DNA of 64,000 nt, taken from Fuerstiella sp. (lineage in GTDB: Bacteria; Planctomycetota; Planctomycetia; Planctomycetales; Planctomycetaceae). Below are positions 4,425 through 46,778 of the stretch, piece by piece (the first letter of the stretch is position 1; the number at the start of each line of letters is the position of its first letter). The notes beneath the pieces were generated by a model. It searched no databases. It worked only from the letters and a program-made list of their open reading frames with translations, and was not told where the DNA came from. Made by a program: the position numbers and the translations under genes. The stretch is from contig JABABI010000035.1 in the NCBI GenBank assembly GCA_014238335.1, forward strand, positions 2,361 through 66,360, in the 5' to 3' direction.

Positions 4425-5972
4425 ATGCTTCTCACTCCCGAACAGGAACAAATCGGTAAAGACAACTTTCATGAGGTTGTTGGCGTTTCCCGCCGAGACT
4501 TCATGAAAACCGCAGCAGCGGCAGGAACAGGTCTGGGTGCTCTGTACTTCGGCTACAGCAAACTGGAAGGCAAACCGGTCCGGACGGCATTCATCGGCAC
4601 GGGCGACGAAGGCAATGTGCTGATCAACGAGCACCCGACGGACTACATGGAAATCGTGGCGATCGCGGACCTGCGACCTGCCAACCAGAAACGAACGTTC
4701 ACGGGCAGCCATCCGGTTGCTCGTCGAGGTCTGAACGCGGTTCTGGGCAGAGCCAAAGCGGACAACGTTGCCAAGAACGTATTTACCAACCATCGCGATC
4801 TGCTGGCGAAAAAAGACGAGCTGGGCCTGGAAGCCGTCGTGATCGCCGTGCCGTTGAATCAGCACGCTCCGATCGCCATCGAATGTTTGGAAGCCGGGCT
4901 GCACGTCATCTGCGAAAAACTGATGGCACAGAATGTCACGGACTGCAAGCGGATGATCCGAGCGGCCGAGGAACAGGACCTGATGCTGGCCGTGGGGCAT
5001 CAGCGTCACTACAGCGTGCTGTACGACAACGCTGCATATCTGACAAATGAGATGGAACTACTCGGCGACATCAAATTCATTCGAGCTCAATGGCACCGCA
5101 ACAACAGCTTTCCTGGCAGTGACGCATGGCAGAAGTGGAACTCCTCAGCAAAAGAAGACCGCGATCTGCTGACAAAGATGGAGCAGGACGGGTCGCTGAA
5201 GGAATACGGTTATGAAACCGCAAGAAAGCTGATCGACTGGCGGCTGTACAATTCAACGGGTGGCGGTCTGATGGCCGAACTTGGCAGCCACCAGATGGAC
5301 GCAGCCAGCATATTCCTGGGAAAGAAGCACCCACTGGCTGTTCAGGGCTACGGCGGCAAAAACTTCTTCGGCATGGAAGGCGTGGGTCCGGAATCGGCAT
5401 GGAACGACGATCGAGATATCGACGATCAGATCTTTGTCACGTTTGAATTCCCTGGCAAGACTCATGAAAAGAATGAGCGCGATGTCGCCGTCGTGACTTA
5501 CTCATCCATGAACACGAACCGCTGGGAGCCATACGGTGAAGCCGTGTTTGGCAGCCGAGGCACGCTGTGGATGAAAACCGAAAAAGAAGCTCTGCTGTAC
5601 AAGGAATCCAGCAAGAACAGCCCCGGCGGCGTTGAACAACGCATCTGGATGGTGGACAGCAAGGGTTCCGGTCCCGTGCTGGACAGCTACGAAACCAGCG
5701 CTCCGTCCGCGGCAGCCAGTGGAGCTCAGGCAGGCATGGGTGAAACGATCAGCCGTGGTTACCGGGAAGAAATGGAGCACTTCTGCTATTGTGTCCGCAC
5801 TGGTAAGAAAGAACTGCGCTGCAATGGCCACGTCGCCATGGCCGATGCAATCATGGCGTTGACCGGAAATCTGGCCATGATGCACAAGAAGCGAATCGAG
5901 TTCAAACCGGAATGGTTTGACGCGTCCAGTGACGCCTGTCCGGAAGAGGATGAACAGGTGAAGACTGCGTAA
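4425..5972 (+). CDS. Tat-exported Gfo/Idh/MocA family oxidoreductase
   Basis: SRRDFMK plus hydrophobic stretch; Rossmann IGTGDEG; HVICEKLMA; [16 protein letters not shown] lies before ATG 4425. Confidence 0.9.
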
Positions 5973-6211
5973 TCCGTCGACCCAAATTCGGTTTACCCGG
6001 TGAGGGTAAGAATTTCATCGACGCATCATAAAGCAGACGTATGGCGCGGTGGCCTGACAACAAGAAATCCAACCTCGTGATGCTCGCGTTGATCTTCATG
6101 CTGTTTCCACTGCTCGCATGGCTTTGCACGCGGTTCGTGCAAGGTTAGCACACATCTGAAAACATGGACCCGTCGTACACGCAGCGGGAGCGGGCCACGA
6201 CATTCCGGGCT

Positions 6212-8053
6212 TCAGTCCGCGTCGGCTTGCGGGCCGCCCCGCAGCGTGATACGGAACCAGCAGCCTGTTGCACTTTCCATCAGTACAACATCTCCGCCGT
6301 GCAGTCGGGCGAGTTCGCGGGCGATTGACAGTCCGATGCCTGTACCAGCGGCATAGCTGAGCGTATTCGAGGCGCGAGCAAACGGCTGGAAGATTTCACT
6401 GCGTTTCGAAGGTTCCACACCGGGACCTTTGTCGATGACATCGATCGTCAGTCGGCACAAGGAACTGCCGGTGGTCGCGGACTCATTCGGAATCCTACTG
6501 ACCGAGTCCGATCGGGATAACTGGCTTTCAATCCGCAGCAGGCCTCCGGACGCTGCGTATTTTTCGACGTTACTCACGAGGTTACCGAGTATCTGTTCCA
6601 CGAAGTCCGGATCCAGCGACATCGTCTGCCCGGCATTGAGTTCCAGCTGGACATCAATTCGCTGGTCGCCAAAGACCGGCTCAAAACGATCAAGAATTGT
6701 TCGGATGAGTCGATCCGGAATCTCTTCGCGAAGCTGGAGTTGCAGGGTCCTGCGTTGCTGCCGGGCAAACGTGAGCACATTCCCGATCAATCGACTGAGG
6801 CGCTGTCCTTCTGAGAGGATGATGTTCAAACGTTCTTTTGGTCGCGCCGCTCCTGCGTTCTCCATTCCCTGCAGGTCGCGGTCCAGCAATTCTGCGTACA
6901 TGCGAATGTTCGTCAGCGGAGTCTTCAATTCGTGTGAAACCTGATTCACAAAACTCACCTGCTGAGACGCCTGCCGCATGTCGCGTGCGTACTCACGAAT
7001 GAAGAGAACTGCAACGACGGCCAGCACGGCCGCCACCGCGCAAAGTCCTGCGGCAAGAGTAAAGTACACACTGCGGCCGGTTCCGGCAGTCAACTGATCT
7101 TCCGGCACGAAACACTGCAGTCGCCATGACGCCAGCGGAGCCACGACCGGAACCTCGCACAACGGCTGCGTTTGATCAGGTTCAAAACTGCCCCATTGAT
7201 AAACAGATTCTGCTGACGTGTTGACGAGCCTCACGCGAGTGGCAACGCGTCGCACCTTTTCTGTCGCGCTGTCGACGGTTTCCGGAAGGTGAGCAACAAG
7301 GTCTGCCATCCACCGCGCCCGCTCCAGTGCGCAGCCGACGATGTGTCCGGATGACCGGCGCTGCCAGTAAATCAGGTTCAAGCCTCGGTCCCAGTACCAG
7401 ACGAACCAACCGGAGGACTCCGTGAAATCGGCGATGTTCTGCACCTGGGCAACGCTGTACGCATCTTCGACCAGTTGCGAAGGGGCCTGGACTTGCTGCT
7501 GTGCCTGCAATTTCTGCACAGCCTGCGGCGCTGGTGACCGGAACGTCCGGGAGGACGCCGGCGCAGGGGGCTGGCTGGGGGCCGACCGATTATCTTCCTC
7601 GGCAACCAGACCGCTGGCAACGTTGGTCGCGTGTTCCGATCGCACGATGGCTTCTTTGAGATCCTTGCCGGTGAACATCTTTGCCGCCTGGACCAGAAAC
7701 AACCGTTCTCTGCCGTTCAGGCTTTCCATGTTGCCTGGATCGGGATAGGTAATCTGACCCGAGGGGCTCAGCACAAACATCTGCAGCATGCTGGGCTCGC
7801 TGCGAATGACCCGCCGCAGCTGGTCGACGTCGAAGTGATCGATAGCAGTGACTTGATTCAGCGACCGCTCTGTGTTCTCAAAGAATATCGCGACGTTGGC
7901 ATTCACGTCGTGCAGCCGATCTTCCATCAGCTCACGAAATCGTTGTCGTACAACAATCTGTTCACTTTCGGCAATGCGTAACGCGGCCCATGTCAGGGCT
8001 GTCAGCGGCAGAATGACGATCAGTGCAATCAGGATTAACGGGCGACGTTTCAT
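6212..8053 (-). CDS. Sensor histidine kinase (HisKA + HATPase)
   Basis: Two TM segments; H-box VSHELKTPL; N-box NLVSNVEKY; G1 DKGPG; G2 GTGIGLSI. Confidence 0.95.
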   Translation of the reverse strand: MKRRPLILIALIVILPLTALTWAALRIAESEQIVVRQRFRELMEDRLHDVNANVAIFFENTERSLNQVTAIDHFDVDQLRRVIRSEPSMLQMFVLSPSGQITYPDPGNMESLNGRERLFLVQAAKMFTGKDLKEAIVRSEHATNVASGLVAEEDNRSAPSQPPAPASSRTFRSPAPQAVQKLQAQQQVQAPSQLVEDAYSVAQVQNIADFTESSGWFVWYWDRGLNLIYWQRRSSGHIVGCALERARWMADLVAHLPETVDSATEKVRRVATRVRLVNTSAESVYQWGSFEPDQTQPLCEVPVVAPLASWRLQCFVPEDQLTAGTGRSVYFTLAAGLCAVAAVLAVVAVLFIREYARDMRQASQQVSFVNQVSHELKTPLTNIRMYAELLDRDLQGMENAGAARPKERLNIILSEGQRLSRLIGNVLTFARQQRRTLQLQLREEIPDRLIRTILDRFEPVFGDQRIDVQLELNAGQTMSLDPDFVEQILGNLVSNVEKYAASGGLLRIESQLSRSDSVSRIPNESATTGSSLCRLTIDVIDKGPGVEPSKRSEIFQPFARASNTLSYAAGTGIGLSIARELARLHGGDVVLMESATGCWFRITLRGGPQADAD

Positions 8054-37581: not shown

Positions 37582-39208
37582 CAGCGTGTCCGGGTACCTG
37601 CCTACCCTGGATATCATTTACGCAATCTTGTATTTGAGGTTGGGTTGACGGGACATTTTTTGAGTTGTTGAACGGGACCACGGATGAGTCGAAAGTTTCG
37701 CGAATGGCAGCCTGATGCGAGCTGATTTTTCCACCGTCTCCGAGAGACTGGCTGCCGGAAGATCATCTGGTTTATTTTCTACGGGATGTGACCGCTCAGA
37801 TCGATATTTCGCCAAGCGTTGAAGACTACGGGGACGACAACGGCGGTCCGCCACCCTTTGATCCGCGGATGATGCTCGTTCTGCTGCTGTATGCGTATAG
37901 CGCGGGTGTGTTTTCATCGCGTAAGATCATGCAGCACTGTGCCACAGACGCTGCCTTTCGAATCATCGTGGGCGAAGATATTCCTAACTATCGTCACATC
38001 GCCGAATTTCGAGCTCGGCATCTGAAACATCTGCAGCCGTTGTTTATGGAAGTGCTTGTGCTGTGTCGTGAAGCAGGCCTGTTGAAGGCTGGGCGGCTCT
38101 CGCTGGATGGCACGAAGATCAAGGCGAACGCGTCACGGAACAAGGCGATGAGCTACAATCGCATGAGACCGGAAGTGGAACGGCTGCAACAGGAGATTGG
38201 TGCTCTGCTGGCTCGGGCCGGTGGGGCGGATGTCACTGATGACGACCAGTTTGGCGATCAGGCGGGTAACGAAACCCCTGACGGACTGAAACGTCGTGAA
38301 AGCCGACTGGCGAAGATCCTTGAGGCAAAGGAAGCTCTGGAAGAGACGGCTCGCCAGAAGGCTCAGGACCACGTCGACAAAATGGAAGCGGAAGGGCGCC
38401 GGCATCGCACCAACCCTGATGAAGCCGTCCCCGCCCCGAAAGCACAGCGGAATTTTACAGACTCCGAATTGAAGATCATGAAGACTTCGAACAAGGAATT
38501 TGATCAGTGTGGAAATACTCAGGCAGTGGCAACCGATCAGCAAATCATCATCGCGGATAATGTCACCGATCAGGCGAACGACGTTCGTCAGACGGTTCCG
38601 ATGACGGATTAGATGATCGCCCATCCTGATGCCGCCCCGGCGTCACAGAAAGCATTAGAGCGCTCAGCGGCGACACGGGTTACTTCAGCGAAGAGAACAT
38701 GAACGCTCTGGATTCGAATGAACGCATCGAGGACATATTCATCGCGACCGGTCGTCAGAAGCACAACGACAAAGTGCCGGATTCGCCCCCAGGTAACCTG
38801 ACCGCGAAACAAAAGATGGCGAGTCGAAACCGAACAAAAAAGGGGCGAGCAGAGTACGCTCGTCGAAAGGTGATTATCGAACCGGTGTTCGGCCAGATCA
38901 AAGAGGGCCTCGGATTTCGCTATTTCCTCCTGCGAAGCCTTGAGAAGATGAAGGAGGAATGGAAGCTGGTCTGCCTGACTCACAACTTACTGATGCTGTT
39001 CAGAAGCGGCGCGATCGCGATAAGCTGAAATCGTTACCGTGGAGTCGTACGCCCGGAATTCCTGTCGTGTTCAACACCCCGAATCCGCGTAGCCGTCCCA
39101 TCGTCTTTGCCGTTCGCCAGACGCCGCAGATCAAACCAGGCGGCACACGAAAATTTTGAAGTTTTAGAACTCACCGGGACCACCACACGAGGCTTTCCGG
39201 ACAGCCTG
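37582..39208 (+). mobile_element. IS1182-family insertion sequence (degenerate), flanked by CTAG
   Basis: Imperfect terminal IRs CAGCGTGTCCGG and revcomp CAGGCTGTCCGG; CTAG at 37578-37581 and 39209-39212. Confidence 0.85.
37684..39028 (+). pseudogene. IS1182 transposase pseudogene
   Basis: MSRKFREWQPDAS* followed by a frameshift; then PPFDPRMM, LDGTKIKANAS, QRNFTDS, premature TAG 38610-38612, a second frameshift, and YARRKVIIEPVFGQIK. Confidence 0.9.
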
Positions 39209-41275
39209 CTAGTCGCTGTCAACCAGAAGCCGGGCGGGTGGAACCTGACCAGCCATAACAGCAAAGGCAGCTTCCAGTTCGATCTCCATCTGAGCGTTGG
39301 ACGTACCTGATGCAATGTGTACGTATTCGCCACCGCTCATCCGGGCAATCGCGTCCATCAGGACCGTGTCCGCACCATCGCCCATTGAGATCGTGTGAAC
39401 GGTATAGCCCGCATCATATGCCTCCTTCGCTCGAACAAAGGAATGCAGAGCGGCCCGCCAATTTCCACCGCTGTTGCCACCACTTACGTAGCTGCTGTCA
39501 ATAACCAGATTCGCCGAACCGTCGTCATCAAAGTCAGTGATATCGTTCCAGTTCCAGCCGGGCGGCAGGCTGCCCGTACCATATCCACTTGGATATTTAT
39601 TTGACTGACCATCCGTCATCAGCAGGATCGCCTTCTGAGCTCCGTAACGCCCCTGATCATCAAGCAGGTCGCTGGCGTCTTCAAGGCCGTATCCGATGCC
39701 GGTGGCACCGTTGTAGTGCCCGGCCTGCTTATGACGTTGAATAGTATTAATGGCCATTACGTCATTAGTCAGATGTTCACCAGCCAGATCAACGGTAACA
39801 TCTGCGCCATCGTCCCAAAGTCCGGTTTCAATTCTTGACGTTGTCGCATACGTGACCAGCCCCAGATGATCTCCGTAACCCAGATTATTCAGGAATGCAG
39901 CCAGCATCGTGACACCTTCCTTCATCCCATGGTGAGGATAGATCGGAGCACGCCAGAGATCTTCCGACTCGCTGTTCGCCTTCTTCTGACTGATCAGATA
40001 CTGCATCAGCGTTCGGTATCCGTAATCCTTTCTGTATCCGTAGCTGCTCAGGTTGTTCTTTACGTATTTAATGTAGCCCTTCCATAGTGCCTCACTTTCG
40101 CTGGCAGAAGGCTTGCCCTTCCGATTTCCGTTGGCCGCCTTCCCTTCCTGCGGAAACGCTACGTAATCGTCCTCCCCGACGCTGGGGTTGGTAATGACAA
40201 TCCACTCAGCGTCGTTGTTGCGACTACCCAATGAGCGGACGTCAGACGTATGCGGACCGGACTGCCAACCACCTTGGTTCGGATAGTCCCAGAGCGTTAC
40301 CGAGTACCCGTCCGGAACCCGAAACGAGTTGATGCGGTCATCGAGATTTCCGCTCATGACATTCAGGTCATATACTCCAACTCCCAGCTCCACCATGAAA
40401 GAACGGTAATTATTACGGTTGTAAAACCTGACTTGAGACTCACTATCGCTGCCACCCAGGTCCAATTGATTAAAGATTGTATCTGTATTGTTGCTGCTGA
40501 CATAGGTGCCGCCGTACGAATTGATGTTTCCGAAACCAGTGACAGGGAACTTCTGAGTTGCAAAATCGTCACTGAATCGTACATCTGAAGCGACCAGAGT
40601 GTCCCAGATATCATCCAGACCATCGATTACGCCGCTGAGTCCCAGTCGGTTGACCGTATCCGAACGCATCTGGCTGTCAAACGCCATTGACCCTGAATAG
40701 TCCAGTACAGCAACGATGTCGCGCGATTCGATGAAAGCGGTGGCATCAGCACGAATTGACTGGGCTCGTTCACCAACAACCGGCGCAAATATCAAGGGCA
40801 GTTTTGCGTCGGCCTGAGTCGGGTCTTCATTCGTTTTTCGGATCTCAACTTTCACCATATTGTACGGCGGGGTCCCAAAGGATTCCGTGTAAGTCACGCC
40901 GTCTTCCTTGAGCAGGCGATTCCCCAGAGTAACGTCGGTCGCCGGATCGATATAGAACCCGTTCAACTCAGCAACGTCGACAGCCATCGCTTTGGCCGCT
41001 GTCGCAGCAATCGCCTGAATGGTCTGCATGTCTGTTTCACCCTGTTCGGCGGCCGATCGAATTCCAATGACGATCTCCTGAGCTGCCGCCAACGCCGCAG
41101 AATCCGCGGCTGCCTGCATGCGAGTCTTCGTGACCGTAATCATACCCAGGTCAACGGACATCCCAACGAATGTCATTGCCGCCATCAGACAGACGACGGC
41201 CAGAACAAAAAATACACCCTTGCGGCGATGATATTTCAGATGTCTCACGATAAGTGATATTGAAGTTCTTTTCAT
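39209..41275 (-). CDS. TadG-like pilus assembly protein with vWA domain and beta/gamma-crystallin insert
   Basis: RRKG + TM + GMSVDLG...MQAAADSAALAA (Tad N-terminal domain); MIDAS LDYSGS; LLMTDG; crystallin-like segment at ~40190-40436. Confidence 0.88.
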   Translation of the reverse strand: MKRTSISLIVRHLKYHRRKGVFFVLAVVCLMAAMTFVGMSVDLGMITVTKTRMQAAADSAALAAAQEIVIGIRSAAEQGETDMQTIQAIAATAAKAMAVDVAELNGFYIDPATDVTLGNRLLKEDGVTYTESFGTPPYNMVKVEIRKTNEDPTQADAKLPLIFAPVVGERAQSIRADATAFIESRDIVAVLDYSGSMAFDSQMRSDTVNRLGLSGVIDGLDDIWDTLVASDVRFSDDFATQKFPVTGFGNINSYGGTYVSSNNTDTIFNQLDLGGSDSESQVRFYNRNNYRSFMVELGVGVYDLNVMSGNLDDRINSFRVPDGYSVTLWDYPNQGGWQSGPHTSDVRSLGSRNNDAEWIVITNPSVGEDDYVAFPQEGKAANGNRKGKPSASESEALWKGYIKYVKNNLSSYGYRKDYGYRTLMQYLISQKKANSESEDLWRAPIYPHHGMKEGVTMLAAFLNNLGYGDHLGLVTYATTSRIETGLWDDGADVTVDLAGEHLTNDVMAINTIQRHKQAGHYNGATGIGYGLEDASDLLDDQGRYGAQKAILLMTDGQSNKYPSGYGTGSLPPGWNWNDITDFDDDGSANLVIDSSYVSGGNSGGNWRAALHSFVRAKEAYDAGYTVHTISMGDGADTVLMDAIARMSGGEYVHIASGTSNAQMEIELEAAFAVMAGQVPPARLLVDSD

Positions 41276-41357: not shown

Positions 41358-41867
41358 TCAGCTGGATAGAGAGCCCCCACCCAGTCCGGCTCGCAGAATA
41401 AGAAACGCTCTCACATTCGAACCACTCATGTAATTCGACGGAAACAGACTAATCGCCGAGTACGGCATGCTGATTTCGATCTTCATCAGTTGCAGCGCGT
41501 TGTCTTCATCAGCAATGTCAAATGGCAACCCGGCACTCTGACCTTCGGCGTGGACAATATCGACTGCCAGCGCCGAACCCGGCAGACCGGATGCGGTGAC
41601 GTAGTTTCGGATGTCCCGTTCAATTTTGGCATTAGGTGTATCGCCGGATTCGACGACATCGCCCCAGTTCATATTCGCCAGGCGGCCTGCTTCGCGGACA
41701 GATGACTGCATGATCGTGCTGGCTCGCAGTGCACTACCCATTTCAATCGTGCCCAGGACCAGAATCAGCATCATCGGCAGAACAACAGCTGCTTCAATAA
41801 CGGCTGCCGCCTTTCGCCTGCTGGTGTCGACGCCGTTCCGATAATGATGTTGACGTGTTGTTCGCAT
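41358..41867 (-). CDS. TadE/TadG family pilus assembly protein
   Basis: RRKAAAVIEAAVVLPMMLILVLGTIEMG...VREAGRLA pilin-like N-terminus. Confidence 0.88.
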   Translation of the reverse strand: MRTTRQHHYRNGVDTSRRKAAAVIEAAVVLPMMLILVLGTIEMGSALRASTIMQSSVREAGRLANMNWGDVVESGDTPNAKIERDIRNYVTASGLPGSALAVDIVHAEGQSAGLPFDIADEDNALQLMKIEISMPYSAISLFPSNYMSGSNVRAFLILRAGLGGGSLSS

Positions 41868-41877
41868 AGTCGGCCCC

Positions 41878-42366
41878 TTACTCTTTTCTCATCACAGCCT
41901 GCCCGTAGACATTGATATCTCCGACCCACCGCGGACCAAGAATGCCGACTTCACCATACGGAACCTGTATCCGCACAATGAATAGACTGCCTCGCTCAAG
42001 ATCTTCAATTGCCACATTCGGAAGAGACGCGTAGTACTCGTCGTCGAGAGCCTCGGCGTCGAGAGCGATGTCGTCAAAATTGCTGGCGTCTTTCACCTGA
42101 ATTTTAACGTTTTCCAGGTTAGCATCGATCGCCGAATTCAGAATGTCGTGCGCAAGCGTTTCAACCTCATCCGTCGTCGCCAAATCTCCAATACCCAGTC
42201 GAGCAGCGCGGCGCGCTGCGGAATTGAGTGTGTGGATCGTCATGAAGACGTGACCAAACTCGATAAATCCAAACAGGAAGGTAAAAAAGATCGGCAGAAC
42301 AACGGCGGTTTCCACCATCGTTGTGCCTTTTCGTCTCTGCCCGTTTCTGCTTCGAAGAAGCCTCAT
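41878..42366 (-). CDS. TadE family pilus assembly protein
   Basis: RRKGTTMVETAVVLPIFFTFLFGFIEFG...AARRAARLG. Confidence 0.9.
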   Translation of the reverse strand: MRLLRSRNGQRRKGTTMVETAVVLPIFFTFLFGFIEFGHVFMTIHTLNSAARRAARLGIGDLATTDEVETLAHDILNSAIDANLENVKIQVKDASNFDDIALDAEALDDEYYASLPNVAIEDLERGSLFIVRIQVPYGEVGILGPRWVGDINVYGQAVMRKE

Positions 42367-43784: not shown

Positions 43785-46778
43785 ATGACTCGAATCCAAC
43801 GGCATTGGACGACCGTGCTGACAGGCTTCCTCGCCGTCGTCTGCCACGGAGCATGGCAATTGTCTGCAACTGCGCAGGATCAGCGTCAGGTCAGCCTGGC
43901 CACGAAGATGCTCGCATCGGTCAACAGTCAGAAAGGACTCTGCGTTCTCCTCGGCTCCGAGGACGGAGGACTCGCCGTCGCTTTGTGTCGTGACGGTGAG
44001 TATCTGGTGCATGGCCTGTGCACCGGCCATGACGCGGTCAATCGAATGCGGCAGGCCATCGACAAGGCGGAGCTTCGGGGTGTCGTGTCGGTTGAGACCG
44101 GGTTGGCCAAACAGCTGCCTTATTCAGACAACATGGTCAACCTCGCCGTGGTCGAGAATTTCGGCCGGTTATTGCAGAACGGACTGCAGCTGAAAGAAGT
44201 GCTTCGAGTTCTCCGGCCGGGCGGTGTCGCCTGGCTGGGTAACTGGAACACTGATGGAAAACCGATTCCCGCCGCGCAACTGAATGAACTGTCCGCCGCA
44301 ACCGGAATTGAGGGTCTTGTGGTCATTCAGGACGATACCGGTGTCTGGGTGCGTGTGCGAAAGTCTCGACCAACGGCCATGGATGACTGGACTCACCAGC
44401 GCGGCGACGCCAGCGGCAATCCGGTTTCCATGGATCAACAGATTGGCGTGCCGACCGGAGTTCGCTGGGTGGCTGGCCCCAACTGGCCGACCGGAGACCG
44501 CAAGGCCTCCACGCCCTCGGCCGTCGCTTCGGACCAGCATCTCGCCGTCGTGTTTCAGGACGAGGTCGTCACCGAAAATGGGCTTCGCAGGGAAAACTCG
44601 TTGATCGTCCGCGACGTTTACAACGGACTGCGTTTGTGGAGACGCAAGGCAGACTCACTGGAACTGATTTCAGACGGCGGGCGGATATACACAAAGGTCG
44701 ACGGGAAACTGGTGGCTCTTGACGGTGAGACTGGTGAAGTGACTCGCACGTTCGATGTCGACGTTCCCGGTGAGTTTCTCCTCAGTGACGGATTGCTTCT
44801 CGTCGCGAACTCAAAAGCGGTCCACGCAGTGGATATTGAAACCGGAGACAGCCGCTGGTCCGCTCCGCTGGTGTCCAAACGAATGCGGGCAGGCGACGGC
44901 CGGCTGTTCGTTCACGTGGACAACAGCCGCCGCGGAGGGGATTCGCAGCTCGTTTGTTTTGAGCTGAATACCGGAGAACAGCTATGGAAAGCCTCCACGA
45001 AGTCGTGGACAAAGGAGGCGGCATTCACACTGGTCTTCTACAGCGATGGCGTTCTCATTGCCGCCACCAACGACGCGAACCACGCCGTCTCGGCCGAGGA
45101 TGGCTCACACTTGTGGGAATACACCTACACAAAGATCGGTCACGGCGGCAGCTATGAAAAAGTGATTTACTCCGACGGCCTCGTCTGGATTCACACGGCC
45201 GATTCGAAAGGGACGAAGCAGTACGCGTGGGAAGGCCTCGATCCGAAAACGGGGAAGGTCAGGAAGCAACTGCTGCAACCGAAGGAGTTCACCTACAAGC
45301 ACCGCTGCAGTTATGACGTCGCAACCGAGCAGTTTTTCCTGTGCGGCTCGATGGATTTTGCCGATCTGAAAACGGGCGAGTATCGGCACTTCGGAGCCAG
45401 CCGAACGTCATGCCGGACGGCAGGACTCGTTCCGGCCAACGGTTTGATTTACACGTTTCCGCACGCCTGCGGATGTTACGTGATGCTGCGCGGATTCATC
45501 GCCCTGGAGACAAGTCCGCAGACCGCTCCAATTGACGAAGACAAGCGTCTGAAAAAGGGACCAGCATATGGCGCCCAACACACGCGATCCGATTCTCCCG
45601 TGGCAGACTGGCCGACGTATCGTTGCAATGTGGCGCGCAGCGGCAGCACCGGCGAAGCCGGTCCGACGAAACTCACGCGGCTCTGGGATCGACGGGTCGC
45701 TGGTCGAGTCGCTGAATCGGTGGCACTGGAATGGGGGCAGAAAAATGCCAACCCACTTACCAGTCCAGTCGTGGCAGAGGGACTGGCGTTTGCCGCGAGC
45801 AGCGATCATCACCGTCTCGTCGCCCTTGATGCGAACACCGGTGAGCTGCGGTGGAACTTCACGTCCGGCGGACGGATCGGCTGCCCGCCGACGATCGACG
45901 GAGGTCTGTGCCTGTTCGGTTCACACGACGGCTGGGTTTACTGCCTCACCACTGATGACGGCCAACTCGTCTGGCGATTTCGCGCAGCACCGCGCGACCG
46001 CCGGATTGTCGCGTACGGGCAGATCGAATCTGCTCGGCCGGTCCTGGGAGGAGTCCTCATGTACGATGGCCTCGCGTATTTCGTCGTCGGCCGACACAGC
46101 GACTCGGACGACGGACTGCTTGTGCAGGCTGTCAAACCGGAAACCGGAGAACTTGTCTGGGCTGAGCCGGTCACAGGACACGATGGTGTCCCCGATGTGC
46201 TGACGGGCGGCCAAGGAACCATTCAACTGGCCTCCTGGGAAGTCGACGCAAAAACCGGCAAACCCGGATCGGCCGGTCTCGATCGACTTCGCGGAGGCCG
46301 ACTGGGGCTGCTGAATGCCGCATGGGCGAAACGGCCGATCGCGATTCGTCGAAATCTGTCGGAGTGGAAAACCGGCGATCGACCCGCCGGCCAGATGCTC
46401 GCCTTTGACGACGCGGCCACGTGTGGTTATCGGGCGTGCGTAAAGGTCAACACCGGCAACGGTGAGATGTCCGGCAATGCCCTGCTGTTCGCCAAAGCAG
46501 TTTCGGGAAAAGAGTGGAGTGTCAAGATGCCCAACACCGCCCGGATGCGCGGCATGGTGATGGCTGGCGAACGACTCTACGTGGCAGGAAAGTTGTACGG
46601 GGACGAAAAAGGCAAGAGTGCCATTAACGGCGTACGGGTTCATGACCTTGTTGACGGAAAGCTTCTTGCCGAGCACGCCATCGACGGCGGCCTGGTCCAC
46701 GACTGCCTCGCGGTTGCCGGAGAACGGCTCTACGTTTCGACGCAAAATGGCAGAGTAATTTGCCTGGGCTCGAAGTAA
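43785..46778 (+). CDS. Secreted methyltransferase-like + PQQ-like beta-propeller protein
   Basis: Signal peptide; class I SAM-MTase-like region (CVLLGSEDG, LPYSDNMVNL, EVLRVLRPGG); two propeller blocks starting DDWTHQRGD and DWPTYRCN. Confidence 0.85.
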   Translation: MTRIQRHWTTVLTGFLAVVCHGAWQLSATAQDQRQVSLATKMLASVNSQKGLCVLLGSEDGGLAVALCRDGEYLVHGLCTGHDAVNRMRQAIDKAELRGVVSVETGLAKQLPYSDNMVNLAVVENFGRLLQNGLQLKEVLRVLRPGGVAWLGNWNTDGKPIPAAQLNELSAATGIEGLVVIQDDTGVWVRVRKSRPTAMDDWTHQRGDASGNPVSMDQQIGVPTGVRWVAGPNWPTGDRKASTPSAVASDQHLAVVFQDEVVTENGLRRENSLIVRDVYNGLRLWRRKADSLELISDGGRIYTKVDGKLVALDGETGEVTRTFDVDVPGEFLLSDGLLLVANSKAVHAVDIETGDSRWSAPLVSKRMRAGDGRLFVHVDNSRRGGDSQLVCFELNTGEQLWKASTKSWTKEAAFTLVFYSDGVLIAATNDANHAVSAEDGSHLWEYTYTKIGHGGSYEKVIYSDGLVWIHTADSKGTKQYAWEGLDPKTGKVRKQLLQPKEFTYKHRCSYDVATEQFFLCGSMDFADLKTGEYRHFGASRTSCRTAGLVPANGLIYTFPHACGCYVMLRGFIALETSPQTAPIDEDKRLKKGPAYGAQHTRSDSPVADWPTYRCNVARSGSTGEAGPTKLTRLWDRRVAGRVAESVALEWGQKNANPLTSPVVAEGLAFAASSDHHRLVALDANTGELRWNFTSGGRIGCPPTIDGGLCLFGSHDGWVYCLTTDDGQLVWRFRAAPRDRRIVAYGQIESARPVLGGVLMYDGLAYFVVGRHSDSDDGLLVQAVKPETGELVWAEPVTGHDGVPDVLTGGQGTIQLASWEVDAKTGKPGSAGLDRLRGGRLGLLNAAWAKRPIAIRRNLSEWKTGDRPAGQMLAFDDAATCGYRACVKVNTGNGEMSGNALLFAKAVSGKEWSVKMPNTARMRGMVMAGERLYVAGKLYGDEKGKSAINGVRVHDLVDGKLLAEHAIDGGLVHDCLAVAGERLYVSTQNGRVICLGSK

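What the first reader, a model, noticed from the sequence alone, without database searches (positions are those of the whole stretch)
40190..40436. Beta/gamma-crystallin domain inserted inside the vWA region of a Tad pilus-associated protein
Seen: an ~80-aa segment, QVRFYNRNNYRSFMVELGVGVYDLNVMSGNLDDRINSFRVPDGYSVTLWDYPNQGGWQSGPHTSDVRSLGSRNNDAEWIVI, lies between the MIDAS DYSGS and the later vWA strands. It shows the two-Greek-key pattern F/W-x-x-x-N-Y/Q-x-G and the D/N-D/N-x-I-x-S motifs (DDRINS, NNDAEW). Established: such motifs form Ca2+ sites in microbial crystallins like Protein S, and TadG-vWA proteins are minor pilin/tip adhesin candidates. Inference: a modular, Ca2+-dependent tip adhesin with a swappable insert. 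I am not aware of this architecture being described.
Basis: partly seen in the sequence, partly recalled or inferred. Interest (0 to 1): 0.7.

Follow-up and report, generated by a model that had tools for sequence, protein, structure and literature searches.

The report
Swappable crystallin module in pilus-tip protein
A marine planctomycete's TadG-type pilus protein carries a genuine beta-gamma-crystallin domain in a flexible slot inside its metal-binding adhesion (vWA) domain. Near-identical relatives hold an unrelated module at that spot, so the slot looks like an exchangeable head on a probable pilus-tip adhesin.

Summary
Residues 281-361 of a 688-aa minus-strand gene (window 40193-40435) are a real beta-gamma-crystallin domain.

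- **Sequence:** Hahellin E 1.2e-7 with the single sequence. A family profile gives Protein S 2.3e-12.
- **Fold:** AF2 pLDDT 82. The first 26 Foldseek PDB hits are all crystallins, TM about 0.75.

The host protein is a TadG/CpaL-type modular minor pilin. It has a Tad N-terminal helix, Tad_C, and a split vWA domain with an invariant MIDAS. It lies downstream of two TadE genes.

The "swappable insert" idea is strongly supported. Among 121 homologues the slot holds either the crystallin (35) or an unrelated aromatic-rich module (85).
- The backbone tree needs at least 14-15 switches, and the AU test rejects a single origin (p 1.7e-5).
- Two syntenic locus pairs are 95-100% or 85-95% identical in DNA, except at the slot.
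- More distant relatives carry yet other modules.

Not shown: Ca2+ binding (both motifs are non-canonical, DDRINS and NNDAEW), tip location, and the ligand.

The split-vWA TadG layout and variable Tad tips are already published. The crystallin cargo and the allelic cassette exchange appear new, so this is a new variant of a known kind.

The parts
39209..41275 (-). tadG-like gene, 688 aa (P0001): pilin-like module + split vWA + crystallin insert
   Evidence: ORF. Pfam Tad, Tad_C and VWA. 120 full-length homologues. AF2 pLDDT 85. Best Foldseek hit is the PilB minor pilin, followed by vWA pilus adhesins.
41078..41209 (-). N-terminal hydrophobic TadE/G-like segment (aa 23-66), part of a long helix aa 17-77
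   Evidence: PF13400 Tad E 4.9e-11, above cut-off. AF2 helix 17-77.
40736..41026 (-). Tad_C region (aa 84-180), the beta-sheet head of the pilin-like module
   Evidence: PF09977 at 26 bits against a cut-off of 22.1. AF2 strands 115-182.
40688..40702 (-). MIDAS DxSxS loop D192-Y-S194-G-S196
   Evidence: D192, S194 and S196 are invariant in 121 homologues.
40163..40456 (-). Exchangeable slot, aa 274-371: G/S/D/E-rich linker, module, linker
   Evidence: Hypervariable between the conserved flanks ..LDLGG and Y-V-P-F-P-Q-E-G-K. AF2 pLDDT is below 50 at aa 276-279 and 365-369. DNA identity collapses here in syntenic pairs.
40193..40435 (-). Beta-gamma-crystallin domain, aa 281-361 (two Greek keys)
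   Evidence: sequence against PDB; AF2 plus Foldseek; relatives are multi-crystallin-repeat proteins.
39227..39913 (-). C-terminal part of the vWA domain (aa 455-683), including MIDAS T525 (39701-39703) and D555 (39611-39613)
   Evidence: Pfam VWA 455-560. T525 and D555 invariant. AF2 alternating beta/alpha elements 470-683.
41358..41867 (-). TadE-like pseudopilin gene (169 aa) immediately upstream
   Evidence: PF07811 TadE E 8.9e-10. The same gene order is seen in L001-L006.
41878..42366 (-). TadE-like pseudopilin gene (162 aa), first gene of the triad, with the G-TTMV-E processing-type motif
   Evidence: PF07811 TadE E 2.4e-15. Sequence.

Best explanation
**Shown here**
- The gene encodes a TadG/CpaL-type modular minor pilin of a Fuerstiella-like marine planctomycete. 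It has an N-terminal pilin-like helix and head, followed by a vWA domain with a complete MIDAS.
- The vWA domain is interrupted after its first helix by a conserved scaffold of about 240 aa.
- That scaffold contains a slot bounded by two flexible acidic/Gly-Ser linkers. In this genome the slot holds a single beta-gamma-crystallin domain.
- The slot is an exchangeable cassette. At orthologous, syntenic loci in closely related organisms, homologous recombination through the conserved flanks has repeatedly replaced the crystallin with an unrelated aromatic-rich module of about 60-70 aa, or the reverse. More distant relatives hold still other modules.

**Inferred**
- With the two TadE-like pseudopilins encoded just upstream, the protein forms a three-subunit complex that primes and caps a Tad (Flp) pilus, as modelled for CpaJ/K/L and the Kil 'Tips'.
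- The vWA MIDAS and the slot module are then exposed at the tip. The slot module tunes what the pilus binds, or who can recognise the pilus.
- The crystallin module is probably stabilised by Ca2+, which is abundant in sea water, through two non-canonical sites. Its ligand is unknown. A carbohydrate or a surface is the best guess, because microbial crystallin domains often accompany carbohydrate-binding or glycoside-hydrolase proteins.
For: **Crystallin identity**
- PDB sequence hits are crystallins only: Hahellin 1.2e-7; Protein S 2.3e-12.
- AF2 pLDDT 82.3. Foldseek ranks 1-26 are crystallins, TMt 0.72-0.77. The domain is recovered again in the whole-protein model (2kp5 TMt 0.78, 1nps 0.81).
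- Homologues of the insert elsewhere are multi-repeat Crystall / Inhibitor_I36 proteins.

**TadG identity**
- Pfam Tad, Tad_C and VWA.
- MIDAS D192/S194/S196/T525/D555 invariant in 121 homologues.
- Top structural hit is the S. sanguinis PilB minor pilin, followed by vWA pilus adhesins SpaC, RrgA, GBS104 and Mfa5.
- Two TadE genes lie upstream, here and in every relative looked at.

**Discrete, flexibly linked module**
- pLDDT below 50 only at aa 276-279 and 365-369 within the body of the protein.

**Cassette exchange**
- Slots cluster into type A (35), type B (85) and one odd sequence. A and B profiles are unrelated (hhalign probability 0.1%).
- The backbone tree needs 15 switches, 11 of them forced by starred branches. 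It still needs 14 when aa 205-430 are removed, and the AU test rejects type-A monophyly (delta lnL 1531, p 1.7e-5).
- L001 (type A) and L002 (type B) have the same gene neighbourhood and 95-100% DNA identity over 8 kb, except nt 2340-2990 of L001 where identity is 28-70%.
- L006 (A) and L003 (B) are syntenic with an 85-95% background that falls to 37-46% only at aa ~283-372.
- Six sister pairs show the same collapse at aa 271-360.
- Crystallin-slot identity is decoupled from backbone identity (r 0.38; for example 85% against 47%).
- Other slot contents occur in distant homologues.

**Published framework**
- CpaL split vWA and tip model (PMC11870444).
- Variable TadG/KilN tips encoded in separate three-gene clusters (PMC12075869).
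- Modular pilins (PMC8179133).
Against: - No experimental or expression data exist for this protein.
- No Tad machinery gene (CpaF/TadA, secretin, Flp) lies in the 64-kb window.
- TadG here lacks the Glu at +5 after the putative cleavage Gly (G20-VFFVL). Processing and incorporation into a fibre are therefore uncertain.
- No type-A insert reaches Pfam's crystallin gathering score.
- Both Ca2+ motifs are non-canonical.
In CpaL the insert at the same point projects away from the MIDAS.
- Most sequences are from MAGs and metagenome contigs. However, the two alleles come from independent samples and each ORF is intact.
Confidence: 0.65

Rival explanations
1. The slot is mainly a decoy or escape surface. 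Diversifying selection from pilus-tip-binding phages or other antagonists drives replacement of the exposed module. The crystallin has no ligand of its own and is just a compact, stable, surface-exposed fold.
For: - There is recurrent replacement among near-identical backbones.
- Among close relatives the crystallin slot diverges faster than the backbone: 78% against 92% for P0001 and P0003.
- The alternative modules share no fold family that I could identify.
- Tad pili are known phage receptors in Caulobacter. This rests on general knowledge and was not tested here.
Against: - Within type A, many surface positions are strongly conserved across backbones only 45% identical. Examples are D312, D313, N316, S317, N354, D355, E357 and W358, at 28-33 of 33 sequences. 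That points to a conserved activity rather than mere variability.
- This rival is not exclusive of the adhesin reading.
Confidence: 0.2
2. The protein is not on the pilus. Like some accounts of A. actinomycetemcomitans TadG, it would stay anchored in the cytoplasmic membrane as an assembly or anchoring factor, with the vWA and crystallin domains in the periplasm. The crystallin would then be a Ca2+-stabilised structural spacer.
For: - The N-terminus lacks the Glu+5 of processed Tad pseudopilins (sequence), whereas both neighbouring TadE proteins have it.
- No pilus machinery genes lie nearby.
Against: - A periplasmic assembly factor gives no obvious reason for repeated wholesale exchange of one flexibly linked module.
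- The closest structural match is a bona fide tip-type modular pilin adhesin, PilB.
- CpaL and TadG are modelled at the tip, and TadG was found in pilus fibre preparations, as cited in PMC11870444.
Confidence: 0.12
3. The crystallin likeness is a chance or compositional resemblance, and the region is just a variable loop of the TadG family.
For: The Pfam crystallin models are hit only below their curated thresholds.
Against: - Significant and exclusive PDB sequence hits.
- A confident AF2 fold with crystallin-only top matches.
- 334 library hits at E<=1e-3. The seven non-TadG hits scanned all carry Crystall repeats.
Confidence: 0.02

Closest known systems
CpaL of Caulobacter crescentus (TadG orthologue; PMC11870444 / PMC12607857)
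   Same: - N-terminal pilin-like module.
- A single vWA domain with a full MIDAS, split shortly after the MIDAS helix by a beta-rich insertion.
- Encoded next to two small minor pilins (CpaJ/K there, two TadE here).
- Predicted to cap the Tad pilus.
   Different: - CpaL's insert is two six-stranded beta-barrels with no recognisable relatives. Here the insertion is a conserved scaffold plus one slot that holds a beta-gamma-crystallin domain.
- Allelic exchange of the insert was not reported for CpaL.
- cpaL lies in the cpa locus, whereas this triad stands apart from any machinery genes within the window.
KilL/KilM/KilN 'Tip' complexes of the Myxococcus xanthus Kil (Tad-like) pilus, and TadE/F/G tips modelled in other bacteria (PMC12075869)
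   Same: - Three-gene clusters (two small and one large minor pilin) encoded away from the machinery.
- The large subunit exposes a variable, modular domain proposed to set target specificity.
   Different: - In Myxococcus the variety comes from four paralogous clusters within one genome.
- Here it comes from alternative alleles of one slot at one orthologous locus across strains and species.
- No link to predation or a T3SS is seen here.
PilB of Streptococcus sanguinis (bimodular type IV minor pilin with vWA; PDB 7B7P/7BA2; PMC8179133)
   Same: It is the best Foldseek match of the whole model. It has a pilin module plus a MIDAS-containing vWA adhesion module and is a proven adhesin.
   Different: PilB belongs to a type IVa pilus of a monoderm. 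Its vWA is not split by an inserted domain, and it has no crystallin.
Microbial beta-gamma-crystallins: Hahellin (2KP5), Protein S (1PRR/1NPS), clostrillin (3I9H), flavollin (3HZB)
   Same: Double Greek-key fold with 27-33% identity. The N/D-N/D core of both motif regions and the conserved Ser of the first motif are kept.
   Different: - Position 5 of both Ca2+ motifs is Asn or Glu instead of Ser/Thr, and position 6 of the second motif is Trp.
- It is a single domain nested inside another domain, rather than free-standing or in tandem arrays.

Membership tests
Beta-gamma-crystallin superfamily | Double Greek-key beta-sandwich fold | tested here: met
   AF2 pLDDT 82.3. Foldseek ranks 1-26 are all crystallins, E down to 1.9e-7, TMt 0.72-0.77. 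Confirmed in the full-length model.
Beta-gamma-crystallin superfamily | Significant sequence similarity to solved members | tested here: met
   phmmer gives Hahellin 1.2e-7. The profile gives Protein S 2.3e-12, Hahellin 7.2e-11 and clostrillin 1.3e-9, with crystallins only.
Beta-gamma-crystallin superfamily | Pfam PF00030 / PF08964 gathering score | tested here: not met
   Window insert: Crystall_3 16.6 bits against a 27.3 cut-off; Crystall 13.2 against 25. None of the 30 orthologous inserts reaches the cut-off, and the best E-value is 3.1e-4. This is a matter of model sensitivity and does not speak against the fold.
Beta-gamma-crystallin superfamily | Y/F/W-x4-Y/F-x-G signature in each Greek key (as in PMC3551895) | tested here: inconclusive
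   - Key 1 is Y285-NRNN-Y290-R-S292. Gly is present in 11 of 33 relatives and is Ser in the window.
- Key 2 is W329-DYPN-Q334-G-G336, so the inner aromatic residue is missing.
Ca2+-binding microbial beta-gamma-crystallins | Two canonical N/D-N/D-X-X-S/T-S motifs | tested here: not met
   - Motif 1 is D312-D-R-I-N316-S317, with Asn at position 5 in 29 of 33 sequences.
- Motif 2 is N353-N-D-A-E357-W358, with Glu in 28 of 33 and Trp in 31 of 33.
- Oxygen-bearing side chains are kept at position 5, so binding is not excluded.
Ca2+-binding microbial beta-gamma-crystallins | Measured Ca2+ binding | not testable with these tools
   Needs ITC or thermal-shift measurements on the isolated module.
TadG / CpaL-type large Tad minor pilin | N-terminal TadE/G-like hydrophobic helix (PF13400) and Tad_C (PF09977) | tested here: met
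   Tad 43.2 bits against 22.3, and Tad_C 26 bits against 22.1. AF2 helix 17-77 plus a beta-sheet head.
TadG / CpaL-type large Tad minor pilin | vWA domain with a complete MIDAS (DxSxS, T, D) | tested here: met
   Pfam VWA 31.3 bits against 23.8. D192, S194, S196, T525 and D555 are invariant in 121 homologues. vWA adhesins appear in Foldseek.
TadG / CpaL-type large Tad minor pilin | vWA split by an insertion after the MIDAS helix | tested here: met
   The MIDAS loop is at aa 192-196 and helices follow to aa 229. The Pfam VWA match resumes at aa 455. The same position is described for CpaL.
TadG / CpaL-type large Tad minor pilin | Encoded with TadE/TadF-like pseudopilins | tested here: met
   Two PF07811 genes lie directly upstream. 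This order is conserved in L001-L006.
TadG / CpaL-type large Tad minor pilin | A Tad machinery (CpaF/TadA ATPase, secretin, Flp pilin, prepilin peptidase) in the same genome | not tested
TadG / CpaL-type large Tad minor pilin | Physical location at the pilus tip | not testable with these tools
   Needs labelling or cryo-ET. No multimer prediction was available.

The most novel reading that the evidence does not exclude
The slot may be a population-level recognition code. In this reading, marine Fuerstiella-like planctomycetes maintain a balanced polymorphism of pilus-tip heads: crystallin, the aromatic-rich module, and others. The heads would be shuffled by homologous recombination through the conserved flanks, which act as recombination anchors. 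Closely related cells would then differ in which particle, polysaccharide, partner cell or phage their Tad pilus engages. That would be a cassette system for a Tad pilus tip, comparable in logic to pilin antigenic variation or to polymorphic kin-recognition receptors, but working between genomes rather than from silent copies.
Probability: 0.25. Interest if true: 0.75.

Novelty: new variant of a known kind. Interest (0 to 1): 0.58.

Why it matters
Tad pili are widespread attachment and surface-sensing organelles, but what their tips bind is largely unknown. Recent work on CpaL and the Kil Tips proposes that the large TadG-type subunit displays a variable domain.

This locus offers an unusually clean natural experiment. 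The scaffold is the same, up to 99% identical, while the head differs and has been exchanged many times. The domain boundaries are sharp and one cargo, a beta-gamma-crystallin, is recognisable.

- It marks exactly where a module can be swapped without disturbing the vWA fold. That is useful for testing tip specificity and for engineering display on Tad pili.
- It adds a new context, nested in a pilus adhesin, for microbial crystallin domains, whose functions are mostly unknown.
- Public annotation calls these proteins only 'VWA domain-containing', because the crystallin scores below Pfam's thresholds.

Tried and rejected
**Led nowhere**
- Pfam alone does not call the domain. Scores are sub-threshold, so I relied on PDB sequence and profile searches and on the fold.
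- I asked whether type A and type B are remote homologues. hhalign gives probability 0.1%, so no.
- I tried to identify type B and the other slot modules.

**Considered and rejected**
- Are A and B paralogues homogenised by gene conversion? Rejected for the pairs examined, because L001/L002 and L006/L003 are syntenic single-copy loci. A 688-aa ORF on L004 that looked like a second copy is unrelated.
- Are there silent donor cassettes nearby? None in the window or in 65 fetched loci, 622 kb in total.
- Genes in L029 and L040 looked broken. This was an artefact of my ORF picker. Both have an intact type-B gene followed by a second, divergent TadG-like gene.

**Could not be run**
As a result there is no whole-genome search for Tad machinery or paralogues, and no read-level test of within-population polymorphism.
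Full report
**1. What is at the coordinates**

The finding lies in a 688-aa ORF on the minus strand, window 39209..41275 (protein P0001). The quoted peptide is residues 281-361, which is window 40193..40435. Translating the plus strand gives only stops.

Pfam finds three families in the protein:
- Tad (PF13400) at aa 23-66, E 4.9e-11.
- Tad_C (PF09977) at aa 84-180.
- VWA (PF00092) at aa 455-560 only.

The MIDAS DxSxS loop (D192-Y-S-G-S196) lies about 260 residues before the part of the vWA that Pfam sees.

Two TadE-like genes (PF07811) lie directly upstream, at 41358-41867 and 41878-42366 on the minus strand. Downstream is an IS element whose transposase is split over two ORFs (DUF772 and DDE_Tnp_1_6). 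No other pilus gene occurs in the window.

**2. Is the insert a beta-gamma-crystallin?** Yes.

- *Pfam.* The isolated segment hits only the three families of the crystallin clan, but below threshold: Crystall_3 E 0.015, Crystall 0.098, Inhibitor_I36 0.099.
- *Sequence against solved structures.* Hits are significant and exclusive: Hahellin 2KP5 E 1.2e-7, Protein S 5.6e-4, flavollin, clostrillin and gamma-E crystallin.
- *Profile of 30 orthologous inserts.* Protein S 2.3e-12, Hahellin 7.2e-11, clostrillin 1.3e-9. All 14 hits are crystallins.
- *Fold.* AF2 of aa 271-371 gives pLDDT 82.3 and pTM 0.74. Foldseek against the PDB returns crystallins in ranks 1-26 (2KP5 E 1.9e-7, TMt 0.77; 1NPS; 3HZB; 3I9H).
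- *Library search.* An exhaustive HMMER search of 1.84 billion representatives finds 334 proteins at E<=1e-3. The seven non-TadG hits I scanned all carry Crystall / Inhibitor_I36 repeats. Only one of the top 150 (P0126, 690 aa) is a TadG-vWA protein.

None of the 30 orthologous inserts reaches Pfam's gathering score. This explains why public records call these proteins only 'VWA domain-containing'.

**3. Motifs**

Aligned to Hahellin, the two Ca2+-motif regions are D312-D-R-I-N-S317 and N353-N-D-A-E-W358. Across 33 distinct type-A inserts, position 5 is Asn (29 of 33) in the first and Glu (28 of 33) in the second. Position 6 of the second is Trp (31 of 33).

The published motif is N/D-N/D-X-X-S/T-S, and the Greek-key signature is YxxxxY/FxG (PMC3551895). 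Both Ca2+ motifs here are therefore non-canonical.

The substitutions keep oxygen-bearing side chains and are strongly conserved. Ca2+ binding is plausible but unproven.

**4. The host protein**

The full-length AF2 model is confident, with pLDDT 85.0 and pTM 0.74. Its elements in order:
- A long N-terminal helix (aa 17-77) and a beta-sheet head (aa 115-182).
- vWA strand beta1 (aa 185-192) and helices to aa 229.
- A mixed scaffold.
- The all-beta crystallin domain (aa 282-362).
- Three helices, then the alternating beta/alpha rest of the vWA (aa 470-683).

Inside the body of the protein, the only segments with pLDDT below 50 are aa 276-279 and 365-369. These are the two linkers that flank the crystallin.

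Foldseek of the whole model puts the S. sanguinis modular minor pilin PilB (7BA2/7B7P) first. It is followed by vWA adhesins (TRAP, Mfa5, SpaC, RrgA, GBS104, PitA) and again by the crystallins. The five MIDAS residues D192, S194, S196, T525 and D555 are invariant in 121 homologues.

This layout is the one described for Caulobacter CpaL, the TadG orthologue: a pilin module plus a vWA split at residues 204-383 by a beta-rich insert, modelled at the pilus tip with CpaJ/K (PMC11870444). The stand-alone TadE-TadE-TadG triad resembles the separate 'Tip' gene clusters of the Myxococcus Kil pilus, where the large subunit exposes a variable domain (PMC12075869). Modular pilins in general are described in PMC8179133.

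**5. Is the insert a standard part of the family?** No. It is one of several alternative cargos.

A search of 5.8 billion proteins gave 197 hits, and the best 120 are full-length Fuerstiella / Planctomycetaceae homologues.

In the alignment, the stretch equivalent to aa ~274-371 is hypervariable between highly conserved flanks..LDLGG upstream and YVPFPQEGK downstream. Clustering the slot sequences gives three groups:
- Type A, the crystallin: 35 sequences.
- Type B, a Trp/Tyr-rich module of about 55-90 aa with the pattern NYYDxW..GYxWRKY..G.LRR..SW.T: 85 sequences.
- One outlier.

Type B has no Pfam or PDB sequence match and is unrelated to type A (hhalign probability 0.1%).

Among GTDB species representatives (59 loci), types A and B recur in Fuerstiella and Planctomycetaceae MAGs and in one MAG labelled Pirellulaceae. 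Homologues at 29-44% identity hold still other contents:
- A unit of about 44 aa, 'FxNGxxQTF..SGTWQGTGSNSG'.
- Versions of about 143 aa with two or three such units, for example in the isolate SH248.
- Segments of about 135 aa.
- One segment of 41 aa.

None of these has a Pfam match. Anchoring is less certain for these distant sequences.

**6. Exchange, not descent**

- A maximum-likelihood tree of the backbone with the slot columns removed needs 15 A/B switches, 11 of them forced by well-supported branches. The mean for shuffled labels is 30.
- Removing the whole zone aa 205-430 still leaves 14 switches. The AU test rejects a tree that holds the 35 type-A proteins together (delta lnL 1531, p 1.7e-5).
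- Six sister pairs carry different modules on near-identical backbones. P0015 (A) and P0033 (B) are 100% identical in every 30-aa window outside aa 211-420, except aa 541-600 at 93%.
- These are alleles of one locus, not paralogues. L001 (P0015) and L002 (P0033) come from different samples and share the same neighbours: TadE, TadE, TadG, glycogen phosphorylase, GH77 and others. Their DNA is 95-100% identical over 8 kb, except L001 nt ~2340-2990 at 28-70%.
- A second pair, L006 (P0005, A) and L003 (P0010, B), is also syntenic. Its 85-95% background drops to 37-46% only at TadG aa ~283-372.
- Among type-A proteins, slot identity barely tracks backbone identity (r 0.38). The slots of P0011 and P0069 are 85% identical on backbones 47% identical. 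Close relatives such as P0001 and P0003 are 78% identical in the slot against 92% in the backbone.
- No second cassette copy was found in the window or in any fetched locus.

The simplest reading is repeated homologous recombination through the conserved flanks, drawing on a shared pool of modules.

**7. How it most likely works**

Shown:
- The domain identities and the intact MIDAS.
- The flexible linkers around the slot.
- Linkage to two TadE genes.
- Recurrent allelic exchange of the slot module.

Inferred:
- TadE1, TadE2 and TadG form the priming or capping complex of a Tad pilus.
- The vWA and the slot module are exposed at the tip.
- The slot module sets or modulates what is bound or recognised.
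- Sea-water Ca2+ stabilises the crystallin.

Rivals are a phage-escape decoy, which is compatible with the above, and a membrane-retained assembly factor. The second is disfavoured by the exchange pattern, but the missing Glu+5 in TadG's N-terminus keeps it open.

**8. Novelty**

The split-vWA TadG layout, modular pilins and variable Tad tips are all published. Other agents of this scan have noted swappable inserts in pilin-vWA proteins of DPANN archaea and Bdellovibrio-like bacteria. Those are unchecked notes and are not evidence here.

I did not find a beta-gamma-crystallin in any pilin or TadG in the paper library. I also found no demonstration that a Tad-tip module is exchanged as an allele at an orthologous locus between near-identical genomes. 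I therefore rate this a new variant of a known kind, of moderate to good interest.

**9. Limits**

- Nearly all the data come from MAGs and metagenome contigs.
- There are no expression or binding data.
The genome's Tad machinery, any paralogues and within-population polymorphism could not be checked.

Noticed in passing
window 37788-39028 (+): An IS element lies immediately downstream of tadG, with its transposase split over two ORFs: DUF772 at 37788-38612 and DDE_Tnp_1_6/DDE_Tnp_1 at 38699-39028. Homology to the 94%-identical locus L007 (87.5% in DNA) ends exactly at the tadG stop codon, window 39208. The flank has therefore been rearranged relative to that relative.
   Followed up: partly
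P0010, P0033, P0077 and 82 others; e.g. L003 nt ~2570-2810: The alternative 'type B' slot module is about 55-90 aa and Trp/Tyr-rich, with the consensus NYYDxW...GYxWRKY..G..LRR...SW.T...APGYF. It has no Pfam or PDB sequence match. It is probably an undescribed small beta domain.
   Followed up: partly
L043, L051-L054, L056 (one unit); L047-L049, L057 (about 143 aa); L039, L050 (about 135 aa): Distant planctomycete TadG homologues carry a ~44-aa unit 'FxNGxxQTF..SGTWQGTGSNSG..I' in the same slot, present once or in two or three tandem copies. This includes the cultured strain SH248 (CP197413). There is no Pfam match.
   Followed up: partly
L029 nt 5607-6767; L040 nt 6475-7020: In two MAGs a second, divergent TadG-like gene lies directly downstream of the type-B tadG, about 30% identical over the N-terminal 200 aa. 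These may be tandem alternative tip subunits.
   Followed up: no
L023 and L033 (MAG ABC2.145); L025 and L030; L020 and L045: Some Planctomycetaceae MAGs have two separate full-length tadG-vWA loci, both type B. Paralogous tip genes therefore exist in that clade in addition to allelic exchange.
   Followed up: no
P0038 slot; P0083 slot: Some slot linkers are long poly-Thr or Thr/Glu/Val runs, for example EQTTTTTVVTTVTTT and STEVEEEVEEQVTTT. They are reminiscent of O-glycosylated stalk linkers.
   Followed up: no
window 43785-46778 (+): A 997-aa protein combines an N-terminal methyltransferase-like region with PQQ/BamB-type beta-propeller repeats. It is divergently oriented from the tadE-tadE-tadG triad. 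No relation to the pilus genes was examined.
   Followed up: no
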